Assembly: GCA_035426405.1 (NCBI GenBank)
Contig: DAOLZR010000001.1
Coordinates: forward strand, 1-25,314
DNA: 25,314 bases
Source: Minisyncoccota bacterium
GTDB taxonomy: Bacteria; Patescibacteriota; Minisyncoccia; Phycocordibacterales; UBA1006
Reading direction: 5' to 3'
The notes under the pieces: model-generated
What the model was told of the DNA's origin: nothing
Database searches by the model: none
Seen by the model: the letters and a program-made list of their open reading frames with translations, nothing else
Program-made: the position numbers and the translations under genes
In this document: positions 1,300 to 4,785 of the stretch, one piece after another
Layout: each line of letters opens with the position of its first letter
How positions within the stretch are numbered: position 1 is the stretch's first letter

Positions 1300-3309
1300 A
1301 TGAACACTCAAACACAATCTAATACTCCAAGCGAAACATCGACCCGACCAAACGCAGGTTATCAACCGCGACATGGTGGGCACACATCTTCTCCTCGAGG
1401 TAATAATTATCCGCCAAAACGGACTTTGGATCAGTCACTTGAAATGTTGGCTCATTCGACGACTATTCAAAAAACAAACCCATCATCTGGACCTGGCCCT
1501 GCGCCAAGAGGTAATTTCCGCAATAATGACCGACGGTCTCGATTTAATGATCGTGGACCGCGTAATTTTGGACCAAGTAATCAGCAAAATGAATCTCGGT
1601 ACGAGAAAAAACCAGATGTTATTCCACCGCTTGCACCAGGCGATATTCGTATCATCCCATTGGGTGGAGTAGAAGAAATTACAAAAAACATGACGATGAT
1701 CGAATATCGCGATCAGATTGTTATTATTGATGCCGGAATACAAATGGGAGACAGTGGCCCTGGTATTCAAACAACTATCCCAGACACAGGATATCTAGAA
1801 GAACGAAAACACATGATTAAAGCAATGGTGATTACTCATGGTCACTTGGACCACATTGGAGCCATTCCTTTTGTTATGGAGAAAATTGGAAATCCGCCTA
1901 TTTATACTCGTGAATTTGGTGCAATTTTAATTAATAAACGCCAAGAAGAATATCCACATCTTCCACCTTTAGATATTCGTATCGTAGAAAAAGATGAAGG
2001 AGCTGTGAGACTTTCTGAGGATTTAAAAGTGCGATTCTTTGGACTAACTCATAGTATTCCAGACTCGACTGGTGTCATTATTGAAACACCACATGGAGAC
2101 ATCGTTTCAACAGGTGATGTTCGTGTAGAAAATATTGAAGGCGTTCCAGTTGATCACGAAGTTGAACAATATAAATTCTTTAAAGATCGAAATGTTCTCT
2201 TAATGACAATGGACTCGACTGGAATCCCAACACCAGGATGGTCACTAGCCGAATCAATTGTTATTAAAACGGTTGATAAATTGATCGGAGATACAAAAGG
2301 ACGACTATTGATTGCAGCTTTTGCTTCCCAAGTAGAACGATTGATCCAATTTATGGAAAGCGCAAAACGATATGGACGATATGTTGTCGTAGAAGGACGA
2401 TCAATGAAAACAAACATTGCTATCGTAAAACACTTAAACCTTACTAACTTGGACCATGTTATTCCTGTAGAAGACATGCATAAATATCCACCTAACAAGA
2501 TTTTAATTCTTGCTACTGGTGCTCAAGGTGAACAGTATTCGTTACTTGATCGAGTTTCAAACGGAACACATAAATACTTGAAATTAACAGAACACGATAC
2601 AATTATTTTCTCTGCATCTGTTGTTCCTGGAAATGATCGTATTGTAGACGCCTTGAAAGATCGTATCTATCGATTAAATCCAAAGGTTATCACTTATGCC
2701 GATACACAAGTTCACTCATCTGGACACGGTCGTCGAGCAGAACTTGAATGGGTACATACTCAAATCAACTATAAATTCTTTATGCCGATTCACGGTAATC
2801 ATTACCGCTTGAAAATGCACCGAGATGTTGTACTTGCATTAAAACCTGAAAAAACTATTGATGATATTATCGTTCCAGATAATGGAACCATCGTTGAAAT
2901 TCGTGAGAACGGGACTAAGTTAGTGAAATTGGATGTACGCGCTTCGCATGATCGAATCGTAATGGATGGTAACTATATTGGTATCGCCCATGAAGTAGTA
3001 TTGCGAGATCGTAAAGTAATGAACGAAGAAGGTATCTTTACTGTAATTGTGGCACTAGATCAGCGAACTCATGCATTGAAAAAATCACCTGATATTAGTT
3101 CGCGAGGATTCGTCTATTTACGAGACAATCAAGAATTACTCCATAAAGTTCGAGGACTTGCTAAAAAAATTGTCGAGACAGAAACCGAAGGCGGTCGTCA
3201 ATTAGACATCAGCAATCTGAAAGACTTGTTGTCAGATAAAATTCAAAAGTTTTTATTCCAAAAAACTGGGAAAAAACCAATTGTTACAGCAGTTATTATT
3301 GCATTGTAA
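1300..3309 (+). CDS. rnj: Ribonuclease J (MBL/beta-CASP) with ~105-aa disordered N-terminal extension
   Basis: IIPLGGVEEITKNM, THGHLDHIGA metallo-beta-lactamase motif, HSIPDS, VEGRSM, HSSGHG, PIHGNHY, C-terminal PDISSRGFVYLR typical of RNase J. Confidence 0.96.
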   Translation: MNTQTQSNTPSETSTRPNAGYQPRHGGHTSSPRGNNYPPKRTLDQSLEMLAHSTTIQKTNPSSGPGPAPRGNFRNNDRRSRFNDRGPRNFGPSNQQNESRYEKKPDVIPPLAPGDIRIIPLGGVEEITKNMTMIEYRDQIVIIDAGIQMGDSGPGIQTTIPDTGYLEERKHMIKAMVITHGHLDHIGAIPFVMEKIGNPPIYTREFGAILINKRQEEYPHLPPLDIRIVEKDEGAVRLSEDLKVRFFGLTHSIPDSTGVIIETPHGDIVSTGDVRVENIEGVPVDHEVEQYKFFKDRNVLLMTMDSTGIPTPGWSLAESIVIKTVDKLIGDTKGRLLIAAFASQVERLIQFMESAKRYGRYVVVEGRSMKTNIAIVKHLNLTNLDHVIPVEDMHKYPPNKILILATGAQGEQYSLLDRVSNGTHKYLKLTEHDTIIFSASVVPGNDRIVDALKDRIYRLNPKVITYADTQVHSSGHGRRAELEWVHTQINYKFFMPIHGNHYRLKMHRDVVLALKPEKTIDDIIVPDNGTIVEIRENGTKLVKLDVRASHDRIVMDGNYIGIAHEVVLRDRKVMNEEGIFTVIVALDQRTHALKKSPDISSRGFVYLRDNQELLHKVRGLAKKIVETETEGGRQLDISNLKDLLSDKIQKFLFQKTGKKPIVTAVIIAL

Positions 3310-3310
3310 T

Positions 3311-3344
3311 AAACAAAAGAACTCCGATTGGAGTTCTTTTGTTT
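3311..3344 (+). terminator. Intrinsic terminator after rnj (possibly bidirectional)
   Basis: Perfect inverted repeat aaacaaaagaactcc-gatt-ggagttcttttgttt starting 2 nt after the rnj stop. Confidence 0.85.
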
Positions 3345-3355
3345 TAATCAAGGTA

Positions 3356-3466
3356 TAACAAACAAGATGAGTTGTAATTTTATTCGCCTCCGTGCCTGAT
3401 ATTCGTTCTTTACGGATGTGACATTCATACTCGGCTTCATAAAATTACAACTCATCTTGTTTGTTA
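3356..3466. repeat. Palindromic element copy 1: perfect 28-bp arms around a 50-nt structured core
   Basis: 3356-3383 taacaaacaagatgagttgtaattttat is the exact reverse complement of 3439-3466. Core 3386-3435 matches core 3515-3564 at 43/50 positions. Confidence 0.9.
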
Positions 3467-3492
3467 AAACGGTTTACAAAGCAAGGCATGTG

Positions 3493-3588
3493 GAAATTAT
3501 TATTTATTTTTCTTGTCTGCGTGCCTGATATTCGTACTTAACGCAGGTGACATTCATACTCGACAGCGCAAAATATACAGATTATTTC
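3493..3588. repeat. Palindromic element copy 2: same core, different and degenerate outer arms
   Basis: Core 3515-3564 gtctgcgtgcctgatattcgtacttaacgcaggtgacattcatactcgac. Flanks are imperfectly complementary to each other (gaaatt...tgtc / gaca...atttc) and unrelated to the arms of copy 1. Confidence 0.8.
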
Positions 3589-3622
3589 TTTGAATACTTA
3601 TACATGAAAAATAAAGAGAATG

Positions 3623-3631
3623 TGTTATAAT
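3623..3631 (+). promoter_or_regulatory. Extended -10 promoter (TGtTATAAT) for the MFS gene, near-leaderless
   Basis: TGn-TATAAT ends 8 nt before the ATG at 3640; no Shine-Dalgarno. Confidence 0.65.
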
Positions 3632-3639
3632 TTATAAAT

Positions 3640-4785
3640 ATGAAATCTGGTTTAAAATTATTATATGTTATTGGATTTATTTTCTCCCTGCATACAGCAC
3701 TCATAATGTATAGCAACTCCTCGTTCTTGAATCAATTTATTCCTGAATCGTATATGGGATTGTTGTATTCTGCAGGATCGTTACTTGCGATTTTTGGACT
3801 CGTTATGATTCCAAAATCAATTTCAAAATTTGGATCCAGAGTTACTATGTTTGTTTTACTACTTGCAACTATCGCCGTATGTATCATCAATATCGTTGCA
3901 ATGAGTCCAATTACAATTGCAATTGCATTTTGTTTCTTATTTGCAATGAATGTCATGTTTTTTCTTACTAACGATATTCTAATTGATCAACTTGGGAACA
4001 ACGCATCAATGGGATCAATCCGTGGAAAATACCTCACAGTGTTAAACACGGGATATGTATTAGCACCACTTGCAACAGGTTATATATTAGCGCGTATTGG
4101 GTTTCCAGCCTTATATACTGTCGCAGCAATACTATTAATTCCCCTGGTTTGGCTCGCATTTTTTGTCCCATTATCGCCCCAGGTTCACGAATCTAAAATA
4201 AATATTTTCACATCACTTCGAAAATTATGGAAAACGCCCGACATTCGAAATATTATGTTTGCAAATTTTATCTTGCAATTCTTTTATGCATGGATGGTAA
4301 TTTATACACCAATTTATTTACATACAGAAATCGGAATTCCGTGGGACAGTATTGGAACCATGTTTTCAATTATGTTATTTGCCTTTGTATTAACCCAAAT
4401 TCCACTTGGAAAACTTGCAGATAAAGTATTAGGTGAAAAGGAGTTATTATTTGTAGGCTTTATTGTTATGAGCGCAAGTACTATTGCATTATACGCTCTA
4501 CCTTATTTTACTCTTCCCTTGCTTGCCTTGATTCTATTTATCACAAGACTTGGTGCCAGTTGCGTAGAAGTTATGACCGAGACTTATTTCTTTAAAAAAG
4601 TTTCACCATCTGAAACTGGTATTATTAGTATTTTCCGAAATACTTATCCAATTTCATATATTATTGCGCCCATTATTGGATCCGGAATTATTGCTCTTGG
4701 TTCGACAAAACATTTGTTTTTAGTGCTCGGAATTATTTGTCTAGCAGGACTATTCTTTATAGTTCCCATTCGCGATACATTATAA
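3640..4785 (+). CDS. Major facilitator superfamily transporter
   Basis: About 12 hydrophobic segments; MFS loop motifs SISKFGSR and LGKLADKVLGEKE; substrate unknown. Confidence 0.88.
   Translation: MKSGLKLLYVIGFIFSLHTALIMYSNSSFLNQFIPESYMGLLYSAGSLLAIFGLVMIPKSISKFGSRVTMFVLLLATIAVCIINIVAMSPITIAIAFCFLFAMNVMFFLTNDILIDQLGNNASMGSIRGKYLTVLNTGYVLAPLATGYILARIGFPALYTVAAILLIPLVWLAFFVPLSPQVHESKINIFTSLRKLWKTPDIRNIMFANFILQFFYAWMVIYTPIYLHTEIGIPWDSIGTMFSIMLFAFVLTQIPLGKLADKVLGEKELLFVGFIVMSASTIALYALPYFTLPLLALILFITRLGASCVEVMTETYFFKKVSPSETGIISIFRNTYPISYIIAPIIGSGIIALGSTKHLFLVLGIICLAGLFFIVPIRDTL

What the first reader, a model, noticed from the sequence alone, without database searches (positions are those of the whole stretch)
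3356..3588. Tandem palindromic elements: conserved 50-nt core with compensatory base-pair changes inside interchangeable long stems
Seen: cores 3386-3435 and 3515-3564 differ at 7 of 50 positions, and four of these are two compensatory pairs. Core 2/49 changes C-G to T-A in stem gcc/ggc vs gtc/gac; core 5/30 changes C-G to G-C in stem tccgt/acgga vs tgcgt/acgca. Copy 1 sits in a perfect 28-bp inverted repeat; copy 2 sits in a different, decayed one. Both lie after the rnj terminator and before the MFS promoter, so they appear to be outside both mRNAs. Inference: structure is under selection in single-stranded form, as for a REP-like/non-autonomous mobile element recognised by an HUH nuclease, or an unannotated structured RNA. 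I cannot match it to a named family.
Basis: partly seen in the sequence, partly recalled or inferred. Interest (0 to 1): 0.75.

Follow-up and report, generated by a model that had tools for sequence, protein, structure and literature searches.

The report
Capped long-hairpin repeats, Ssn-motif-like cap
The two look-alike 50-base cores are copies of a small non-coding repeat family of one Saccharibacteria genus, in which a conserved, folded "cap" sits on a long hairpin stem that differs at every site. The cap resembles the hairpin signals of single-strand DNA nucleases (Ssn) that the same genome encodes.

Summary
Window 3386-3435 and 3515-3564 differ at 7 of 50 bases. Copy 1 lies in a perfect 28-bp inverted repeat and copy 2 in a decayed one.

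They are not a local duplication. The genome (506 kb, 79.5% complete) holds 9 elements bounded by CTGCGT...TACTCGA, in four cap types, plus at least 6 variants. Related copies occur in 7 of 10 species of the genus and were not found in 45 other genomes of the family.

- **Structure:** each cap sits on its own stem, and stems change by matched pairs.
- **Turnover:** sites are filled or empty among close relatives, and one site can hold different cap types.
- **Ruled out:** no Rfam match, no coding signal, and no Y1 (RAYT) or TnpB gene in this genome.
- **New lead:** the genome encodes three ~96-aa GIY-YIG proteins bracketed by NTS-like hairpins, as described for Ssn single-strand DNA nucleases. 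Read on the minus strand, this cap has the same layout (TGTCAC, 8-bp palindrome, CAGG).

My best reading is a strand-specific hairpin repeat that acts as single-stranded DNA, with Ssn as candidate partner (about 0.45). A cis-acting RNA module is the main rival.

This scan has noted the same architecture before in other Saccharibacteria genomes. I class it as a new variant of a known kind.

The parts
3311..3344 (+). Intrinsic terminator of the RNase J gene (15-bp stem, A-run and T-run on either side); not part of the repeat
   Evidence: I3; RNase J domains in 1300-3306
3356..3383 (.). Left arm of the locus-specific stem of copy 1; ends in the T-run (ATTTTAT) found next to every cap
   Evidence: I1, 28 nt, 100% complementary
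3384..3438 (.). Cap of copy 1 (type A). Conserved core 3386-3435, with family-wide end blocks CTSCGT (3388-3393) and TACTCRR (3428-3434)
3395..3423 (-). Ssn-related-motif-like segment of copy 1, read on the minus strand: TGTC, then the 8-bp imperfect palindrome ACATCCGT/ACGAATAT around loop AAAGA, then CAGG
3439..3466 (.). Right arm of the stem of copy 1; begins with the A-run (ATAAAAT)
   Evidence: I1
3418..3445 (+). Promoter-like hexamer pair inside copy 1 (GTGACA, 16 nt, TAAAAT; 10 of 12). It is a consensus match only
3492..3511 (.). Decayed left arm of copy 2, with T-run
   Evidence: read; the fold is not better than shuffles
3513..3567 (.). Cap of copy 2 (type A); conserved core 3515-3564. 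This copy is absent from the orthologous spacer of relative G004
3524..3552 (-). Ssn-related-motif-like segment of copy 2 on the minus strand (TGTCAC ... ATATCAGG); its palindrome is only 5 of 8 Watson-Crick
3570..3588 (.). Decayed right arm of copy 2, with A-run
   Evidence: read (I4 gives an alternative 14-nt pair 3503-3516 with 3602-3615)
3604..3631 (+). Promoter-like site of the MFS transporter gene (ATGAAA, 16 nt, TATAAT with TG). The ATG at 3640 is 8 nt after it, so the mRNA is leaderless or nearly so; not part of the repeat

Best explanation
The two copies belong to type A of a genus-restricted superfamily of non-coding 'capped long hairpins'.

**Anatomy (shown)**
- Each element has a locus-specific, AT-rich stem of 15-30 bp.
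- A T-run on the 5' arm and an A-run on the 3' arm lie 3-7 bp from the cap.

**Mechanism (inferred)**
- The element works and turns over at the DNA level, as a strand-specific hairpin in single-stranded DNA. Such DNA arises when transforming DNA is taken up, and during replication or repair.
- On the strand antisense to local transcription (the window's minus strand), the stem zips up and presents the cap.
- The type A cap has the layout of the Ssn-related motifs that bracket the three ssn genes (GIY-YIG single-strand nucleases) of this genome. An Ssn-type protein would bind it and cut upstream.
- As shown for Neisseria NTS, this would limit or shape recombination of flanking DNA. It could also drive gain and loss of the element.

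**What it is not**
- When the element lies in an mRNA leader it is carried passively.
- It is not a gene, a riboswitch or a known ribozyme.

How new copies acquire their own stems is not explained.
For: **Family**
- The own genome holds 6 type-A copies and 9 canonical-end elements of types A-D. At least 6 more variants were found.
- The pattern hits 7 of 55 family genomes; five are in genus g1, and the two outside it have no stems and are chance. The reversed-pattern control gave 0 hits in every genome. Adding G005 and G007 gives 7 of 10 species of the genus.

**Stems are locus-specific**
- Three identical 48-nt caps in G002 have unrelated arms.
- The arms have no other copy in the genome.

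**Pairing is maintained**
- Orthologous stems show 3 of 3 and 2 of 2 compensated changes.
- In type A, 84.5% of cells are paired, against 38-50% when the partners are slid.

**Turnover**
- G009 is 95% identical to G002 in rnj, yet it lacks the element at all five G002 type-C loci examined: four are empty and the fifth holds an unrelated 277-nt insert. Where they could be aligned, outgroups G001 and G005 are empty at three of these loci.
- One site holds types D, C and E in different species. The rpsS-leader hairpin holds type A in this genome and type D in G001.

**Strand evidence**
- The arms fold better on the antisense strand in 21 of 28 copies, by 4.2 kcal/mol on average (Wilcoxon p = 0.0004).
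- Arm mismatches are A.C 20 times and G.T 6 times on the sense strand (p = 0.009).
- The type C/D loop is G[CUUG]C on that same antisense strand.

**Ssn link**
- Three ~96-aa single-domain GIY-YIG genes are each flanked by inverted TGTC-ATTCCGG...CCGGAAT-CCAGG hairpins. Relatives have the same cassette.
- The genome holds 17 canonical motifs.
- These match the published NTS, CGTCATTCCCGCG MAV GCGGGAATCYRG, and the NTS-ssnA-NTS gene layout (PMC11893778).
- The type A cap aligns colinearly with them.
Against: **The cap's likeness to the Ssn motif is suggestive only**
- A structured scan gives 2 chance hits per genome. Only copy 1 of the window passes it, at 6 of 8 Watson-Crick pairs.
- The published degenerate motif does not match.
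- The cap palindrome of type A pairs better on the sense strand (G.U 24 against A.C 7). That is opposite to the arms (Fisher p = 6e-5).
- Caps of types B, C and D show no such likeness.

**Gaps in the chain**
- No cleavage or binding data exist.
- Membership of the three proteins in cd10448 could not be tested. NCBIfam gave only a weak GIY-YIG hit.
- ssn genes occur in all 10 species of the genus, including the three where no element was found, so there is no co-distribution signal.

**Points that favour RNA**
- In 10 of 11 co-directional loci the CTGCGT-first strand of the cap is the sense strand. Several copies lie inside conserved 5' leaders. Both facts fit an RNA role as well.
Confidence: 0.45

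Rival explanations
1. A cis-acting structured RNA module carried in sense transcripts (5' leaders, operon spacers, read-through 3' ends). It would be a long double-stranded stem presenting a protein-binding cap, for example an RNase III processing site, an mRNA stability element or a regulator-binding element.
For: - The strand that reads CTGCGT...TACTCGA is the sense strand in 10 of 11 co-directional loci (p = 0.012).
- Copies lie inside conserved leaders downstream of conserved promoters: the DEAD-box helicase, rpsS, a T-box-controlled aminoacyl-tRNA synthetase, and the rplO-secY spacer.
- The type A inner helices keep pairing through G.U on the sense strand. The one position where a transition would break a pair is invariant.
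- Caps are conserved across species that share only 72-80% of nucleotides in rnj.
Against: - The window's own copies lie between a terminator and a promoter.
- Arms and type C caps fold better on the antisense strand.
- Copies are dispensable. They are present or absent between genomes 95% identical in rnj, and one site holds different cap types.
- No Rfam family matches.
- One orthologous pair is antisense to its gene.
Confidence: 0.25
2. A classical miniature transposon or REP/REPIN-type element, moved by a transposase encoded elsewhere (RAYT/IS200-IS605, IS110 or other).
For: - The elements are multi-copy, intergenic and palindromic, with filled and empty sites and tandem or inverted pairs about 130 nt apart.
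- The end blocks GCGTA and TACTC form a short imperfect inverted repeat (read).
Against: - Y1 transposase was not found in G000, G002, G004 or G009, and TnpB was not found either.
- The only reverse transcriptase belongs to a diversity-generating retroelement.
- Stems are not conserved between copies, unlike the terminal repeats of MITEs or REP stems.
- No clear target-site duplication is seen.
- No long autonomous copy was found.
Confidence: 0.1
3. Independent small RNA genes transcribed from the antisense strand. The long stem and the CUUG-capped hairpins would belong to that RNA.
For: - The antisense strand has the better stems.
- That strand also carries purine-rich internal loops and the G[CUUG]C loops of types C and D.
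Against: - No conserved promoter or terminator goes with the elements, and the flanks differ at every locus.
- Copies are dispensable between close relatives.
Confidence: 0.06
4. A mobile outward-facing promoter. The GTGACA of the type A cap would serve as -35 and the A-run of the right arm as -10.
For: Hexamer pairs GTGACA-16-TAAAAT (10 of 12) in copy 1 and GTGACA-16-CAAAAT (9 of 12) in copy 2. Many right arms read NAAAAT.
Against: - The region has only about twice the matches found in shuffles.
- Types B-D have no -35 at that place (read).
- Several copies already lie downstream of strong conserved promoters.
Confidence: 0.04
5. A short minus-strand open reading frame (M-x-x-T-x-x-K-N-E-Y-Q-A-R-R, 14-28 codons) is what is conserved.
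For: The frame is open in 9 of 11 type A copies, with some synonymous differences.
Against: - Variable columns number 7, 7 and 8 of 13 at codon positions 1, 2 and 3, so there is no third-position excess.
- Codon 5 is YNC with an invariant third base.
- One copy has a stop and one a frameshift.
- Types C and D read ACC or ACG where type A has the ATG.
Confidence: 0.02

Closest known systems
NTS / Ssn-related motifs (SRM) with Ssn GIY-YIG single-strand DNA nucleases (Chenal et al. 2025, PMC11893778)
   Same: - Both are directional hairpin repeats that are intergenic and multi-copy.
- The type A cap has the layout TGTC + 8-bp palindrome + short loop + C(C)AGG, colinear with the genome's own canonical motifs.
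- The same genome carries three hairpin-flanked ssn-like genes in the published NTS-ssnA-NTS layout.
- The host is a lineage that takes up DNA naturally (my own knowledge).
   Different: - The cap is only part of a larger element: a long locus-specific stem, a T/A-run and the end blocks CTGCGT/TACTCGA.
- Its palindrome is imperfect on the motif strand, and the 3' flank lacks one C.
- Cap types B-D do not resemble SRMs.
- No biochemical data exist.
REP / BIME / REPIN elements with RAYT (Y1 HUH) transposases
   Same: Both are short extragenic palindromes, strand-asymmetric and clustered in pairs. Both are thought to act as single-stranded DNA hairpins and are often transcribed within mRNAs.
   Different: - In REPs the palindrome itself is the conserved part. 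Here the stem is unique to each copy and the tip is conserved.
- No RAYT was found in this genome.
MITE-like palindromic repeats (Correia/NEMIS, ERIC, RUP)
   Same: They are similar in size (100-160 bp). They form long hairpins in transcripts, lie in intergenic regions and leaders, and are patchy between strains.
   Different: Those elements have conserved terminal inverted repeats and target duplications. Here the arms share only a T-run/A-run, and no duplication is evident.
Integron attC sites
   Same: Both have a structure that is conserved while the sequence varies. Both are strand-specific single-stranded DNA substrates with an asymmetric fold.
   Different: In attC the conserved boxes lie at the base of the hairpin and the centre varies. 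Here the arrangement is the reverse. No cassette organisation is seen.

Membership tests
Ssn-related motif (SRM/NTS) repeats | Hairpin palindrome with directional flanks (YGTC upstream, CYRG downstream) | tested here: inconclusive
   On the minus strand, copy 1 reads TGTC, then ACATCCGT, loop AAAGA, ACGAATAT, then CAGG. The structured scan gave 20 hits against 2 in the reversed control, of which 17 are canonical, 1 is this copy and 2 are chance. The published degenerate pattern does not match it.
Ssn-related motif (SRM/NTS) repeats | The genome encodes a single-domain ~95-aa GIY-YIG protein whose gene is flanked by the motif on both sides | tested here: met
   Three genes (C43:1342-1692, C43:2654-3046, C61:1516-1857), each between inverted TGTCATTCC...GGAATCCAGG hairpins. 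G002 and G004 have the same cassette. Assignment to cd10448 itself could not be run.
Ssn-related motif (SRM/NTS) repeats | Near-perfect stem on the strand that carries the directional flanks | tested here: not met
   Canonical motifs pair 8 of 8. Type A caps pair 5-6 of 8 on that strand and pair better on the opposite strand.
Ssn-related motif (SRM/NTS) repeats | Bound and cut by the cognate Ssn as single-stranded DNA only, on one strand only | not testable with these tools
   Needs purified protein and oligonucleotides.
REP/REPIN with RAYT | A Y1 (HUH) transposase gene in genomes that carry the repeat | tested here: not met
   PF01797 gave no match in G000, G002, G004 or G009. G000 is 79.5% complete, so absence is not proven.
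REP/REPIN with RAYT | The palindromic stem sequence is conserved among copies | tested here: not met
   The arms differ at every locus and have no second copy in the genome.
MITE (Correia, ERIC, RUP type) | Conserved terminal inverted repeats and a target-site duplication | tested here: not met
   Only the T-run/A-run is shared. No consistent duplication is seen at five filled/empty comparisons.
Any Rfam family (riboswitch, ribozyme, sRNA, leader) | Match to a covariance model | tested here: not met
   Only hairpin-shaped chance hits far below gathering scores in 3250-3700. None in the window at gathering thresholds. None in eight loci with types B, C and D at E <= 0.1.
Retron or other RT-linked non-coding RNA | An adjacent reverse transcriptase gene | tested here: not met
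   The single RT of G000 lies on another contig with a 113-nt template/variable repeat pair, so it belongs to a diversity-generating retroelement. G002 and G009 carry elements but no RT was found.

The most novel reading that the evidence does not exclude
These are a distinct class of Ssn-linked repeats in which only the cap is the heritable, transferable unit. The long stem would be made anew, or rapidly remade, at each site. One possible route is single-strand nicking followed by fold-back or template-switch synthesis nucleated at the T-run/A-run. That would be a mode of repeat propagation and palindrome generation not described for REP, MITE or NTS elements.
Probability: 0.15. Interest if true: 0.8.

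Novelty: new variant of a known kind. Interest (0 to 1): 0.6.

Why it matters
- **A reversed design.** Small-genome, epibiotic Saccharibacteria are thought to have little room for selfish or regulatory DNA. Yet about 15 of these elements sit beside core genes in half a megabase (RNase J, a DEAD-box helicase, ribosomal protein operons, a T-box leader). A conserved tip on a free stem is the reverse of classical palindromic repeats and asks for a different recognition or propagation mechanism.
- **A testable partner.** If the cap is an Ssn target, this links a newly described nuclease family to a second kind of repeat, in a phylum that depends on natural DNA uptake. It also gives a direct test of how such bacteria police incoming DNA.
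- **Annotation.** In practice the family should be masked or annotated, so that its copies are not taken for riboswitches, small RNAs or short genes.

Tried and rejected
- **RNA evidence.** Two metatranscriptome runs and two DNA runs were laid on 2900-4100. All are contigs. The RNA contigs cover only 2900-3053 and the DNA contigs break at the repeats, so nothing can be said about transcription or alleles.
- **Whole-collection pattern scan of genomes.** It was swamped by chance hits. The Saccharibacteria hit checked, and two pattern hits in other genera of the family, have no stems.
- **Metagenome scan with a type A pattern.** One true copy among the 120 loci returned, again with an A.C stem mismatch.
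- **Are the stems guides or spacers?** A 22-nt arm word has no match in viral contigs, and the arms have no other copy in the genome.
- **Are the stems inverted copies of the local flank, or pre-existing hairpins split by an insertion?** The empty sites do not contain the arm sequences.
- **Terminator role.** Both strands have the U-run 5' and the A-run 3' of the cap, and no terminator-like site is found.
- **Self-cleaving ribozymes, tRNA-like folds, T-loop and K-turn readings.** I tried these by eye. None held across cap types, and Rfam found none.
- **Published SRM degenerate pattern.** It is too narrow even for this genome's canonical motifs, with 2 hits.
- **Naming the GIY-YIG proteins.** NCBIfam and PDB sequence searches gave only generic, weak matches.
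- **Retro-element idea.** Rejected, because the RT is part of a diversity-generating retroelement.

Full report
**1. Observation**

Window 3377-3445 and 3506-3574 are direct copies, 80% identical over 69 nt. The 50-nt cores 3386-3435 and 3515-3564 differ at seven positions.

Copy 1 is enclosed by a perfect 28-bp inverted repeat, 3356-3383 with 3439-3466. The 123-nt hairpin folds at -48.5 kcal/mol, z = -9.2. Copy 2 has only a decayed repeat, and its fold is no better than shuffles.

The copies lie between the terminator of an RNase J gene (3311-3344) and a promoter-like site (3604-3631). That site lies 8 nt before the ATG of an MFS transporter gene.

**2. A family, not a local duplication**

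A profile of the core finds six copies in the window's genome, which is 506 kb in 71 contigs and 79.5% complete. By eye, all share the end blocks CTGCGT and TACTCGA.

A pattern on these ends hits 7 of 55 genomes of the family, five of them in the window's genus. The two hits in other genera have no stems and are chance. The same pattern read backwards finds nothing in any genome. Adding G005 and G007, found by other searches, gives 7 of 10 species of the genus.

The hits fall into cap types:
- **Type A:** the window's type.
- **Type B:** always between a T-box terminator and its aminoacyl-tRNA synthetase gene.
- **Types C and D:** both share CCUCACG, a small hairpin with a CAAG loop, and a second, covarying hairpin.
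- **A possible type E**.

This genome holds 9 elements with canonical ends. A scan for long inverted repeats with 40-110-nt spacers adds at least 6 variants.

**3. Anatomy**

Every copy is built the same way:
- a long, AT-rich stem whose sequence is unique to the locus;
- a T-run on the 5' arm and an A-run on the 3' arm, 3-7 bp from the cap;
- the cap itself.

The arms have no other copy in the genome. Three G002 copies with identical 48-nt caps have unrelated arms.

For 11 type A copies, a four-helix model pairs 84.5% of cells, against 38-50% when the partners are slid. The 3-bp helix that closes the cap has changes on both sides at all three pairs.

The second (tccgt/acgga) is Watson-Crick in only 3 of 10 copies. 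The same segment pairs better with UUCGU, at 89% of cells.

**4. Evolution**

Orthologous copies in G000 and G004 (80% nucleotide identity in rnj) keep their position and orientation at seven loci. Their stems differ by fully compensated changes, three of three in one pair and two in another. In one pair the outer stems are wholly different but still perfect.

Turnover is evident elsewhere:
- Copy 2 of the window is absent from G004.
- The whole spacer is 66-75 nt in G007, G001, G003 and G008.
- G002 and G009 are 95% identical in rnj, yet G009 lacks the element at all five G002 type C loci examined. Four are empty and the fifth holds an unrelated 277-nt insert. Where they could be aligned, outgroups G001 and G005 are empty at three of these loci, which points to gains in the G002 lineage.
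- The empty sites do not contain the arm sequences.
- One site just upstream of a -35 box holds type D in two species, type C in a third and type E in a fourth.
- A hairpin of the rpsS leader holds type A here, type D in G001, and only a 6-9-bp hairpin in two other species.

**5. Which strand**

In 10 of 11 loci with co-directional neighbours, the strand that reads CTGCGT...TACTCGA is the sense strand (p = 0.012). Several copies lie inside conserved leaders.

The stems give the opposite signal. They fold better on the antisense strand in 21 of 28 copies, by 4.2 kcal/mol on average (p = 0.0004). Their transition mismatches are A.C 20 times and G.T 6 times on the sense strand. Type C caps are also more stable on the antisense strand, where the small loop reads G[CUUG]C.

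The inner helices of type A do the reverse, with G.U 24 against A.C 7 on the sense strand. The contrast with the arms is strong (Fisher p = 6e-5). I cannot explain it.

**6. What it is not**

- **Not a known RNA family.** Nothing reached a gathering score, and nothing reached E <= 0.1 in loci of the other types.
- **Not a coding sequence.** The short minus-strand frame shows no third-position excess (7, 7 and 8 variable columns of 13). It is broken in two copies and lacks its ATG in types C and D.
- **No HUH or TnpB partner.** Y1 transposase and TnpB were not found in the genomes with most copies.
- **Not RT-linked.** The only reverse transcriptase sits beside a 113-nt repeat pair next to the 23S rRNA gene. 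It belongs to a diversity-generating retroelement.

**7. The Ssn lead**

I tested this here.

- The genome has three ~96-aa single-domain GIY-YIG genes.
- Each lies between inverted hairpins of the form TGTC-ATTCCGGNC-loop-GNCCGGAAT-CCAGG.
- G002 and G004 have the same cassette.
- The genome holds 17 such motifs, often as convergent doublets about 15 nt apart.

These hairpins share the blocks and the gene layout of the Neisseria NTS (CGTCATTCCCGCG MAV GCGGGAATCYRG; NTS-ssnA-NTS). SsnA binds the NTS on one strand of single-stranded DNA only and cuts upstream of it, which modulates natural transformation (PMC11893778).

Read on the minus strand, the type A cap is colinear with these motifs: TGTCAC, an 8-bp palindrome around a loop ending in GA, then ATCAGG.

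The likeness is suggestive, not proof. The structured scan gives two chance hits per genome, only copy 1 passes it, and the palindrome is imperfect on that strand. The published degenerate pattern fails even on most canonical motifs of this genome.

**8. Reading**

*Shown:*
- a genus-restricted, multi-copy, non-coding hairpin repeat;
- a conserved folded cap on locus-specific stems;
- pairing that is maintained;
- turnover between close relatives.

*Inferred (about 0.45):*
- It acts as a strand-specific hairpin in single-stranded DNA. An Ssn-type nuclease is the best candidate partner for type A.
- It is carried passively in mRNAs.

The main rival (about 0.25) is a cis-acting RNA module, supported by the orientation bias and the sense-strand wobble of the inner helices. 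How each copy comes to have its own stem is unexplained.

**9. Standing**

This scan has described the same architecture before, in other Saccharibacteria genomes: a conserved tip on locus-specific arms. I found no paper that describes it. I class it as a new variant of a known kind, the extragenic palindromic repeats.

Noticed in passing
L234:1299-1700 and L234:2611-3050 (G000 contig C43); also G000 C61:1516-1890: Three paralogous ~96-aa single-domain GIY-YIG genes, each bracketed by inverted TGTCATTCC...GGAATCCAGG hairpins. This is the NTS-ssnA-NTS layout of Ssn single-strand nucleases. G002 and G004 have the same cassette.
   Followed up: yes
G000 contigs C14:3386-3460, C15:2384-2459, C19:4379-4454, C27:5972-6048: Convergent doublets of the canonical Ssn-related hairpin, about 15 nt apart. 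They look like ssn cassettes without the gene, in the manner of REPIN doublets.
   Followed up: partly
L096:2853-2965 and L096:3309-3421; RT gene at L096:1312-2529 (-); 23S rRNA from L096:886 downwards: A diversity-generating retroelement: a 405-aa reverse transcriptase and a 113-nt repeat pair (89% identical). One copy lies at the 3' end of an open reading frame. The element sits directly upstream of the 23S rRNA gene.
   Followed up: partly
L005:520-866 (G000 contig C14): A conserved structured leader of about 300 nt between a TTGACA/TAGTAT promoter and rpsS, shared by four species, with no Rfam match. One of its hairpins is the site that holds a type A or type D element in some species.
   Followed up: partly
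G000 contig C21:2450-2725: A T-box leader (GGGTGGCACCGCGG) with its terminator. A type B element follows, between the terminator and the start of an aminoacyl-tRNA synthetase gene. It occupies the same place in four species.
   Followed up: partly
whole genome G000; for example C24:3725-3787 and window 3311-3344: More than 100 perfect palindromes with arms of 13-31 bp and loops of 0-5 nt, flanked by an A-run and a T-run. This small genome uses unusually long two-way terminators.
   Followed up: no
window 3604-3642; also the orthologous spacers in L023, L026, L029: The -10 boxes lie only 6-9 nt before the start codons, which suggests that many mRNAs of this lineage are leaderless.
   Followed up: no
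L058:1440-1640 (G002 contig C100): Beside the element, a 13-nt inverted copy (TTAGATTATCAGG) of the downstream -10 region is present in G002 but absent from G009. Whole hairpins, including terminators, differ between these two genomes, which are 95% identical in rnj.
   Followed up: no
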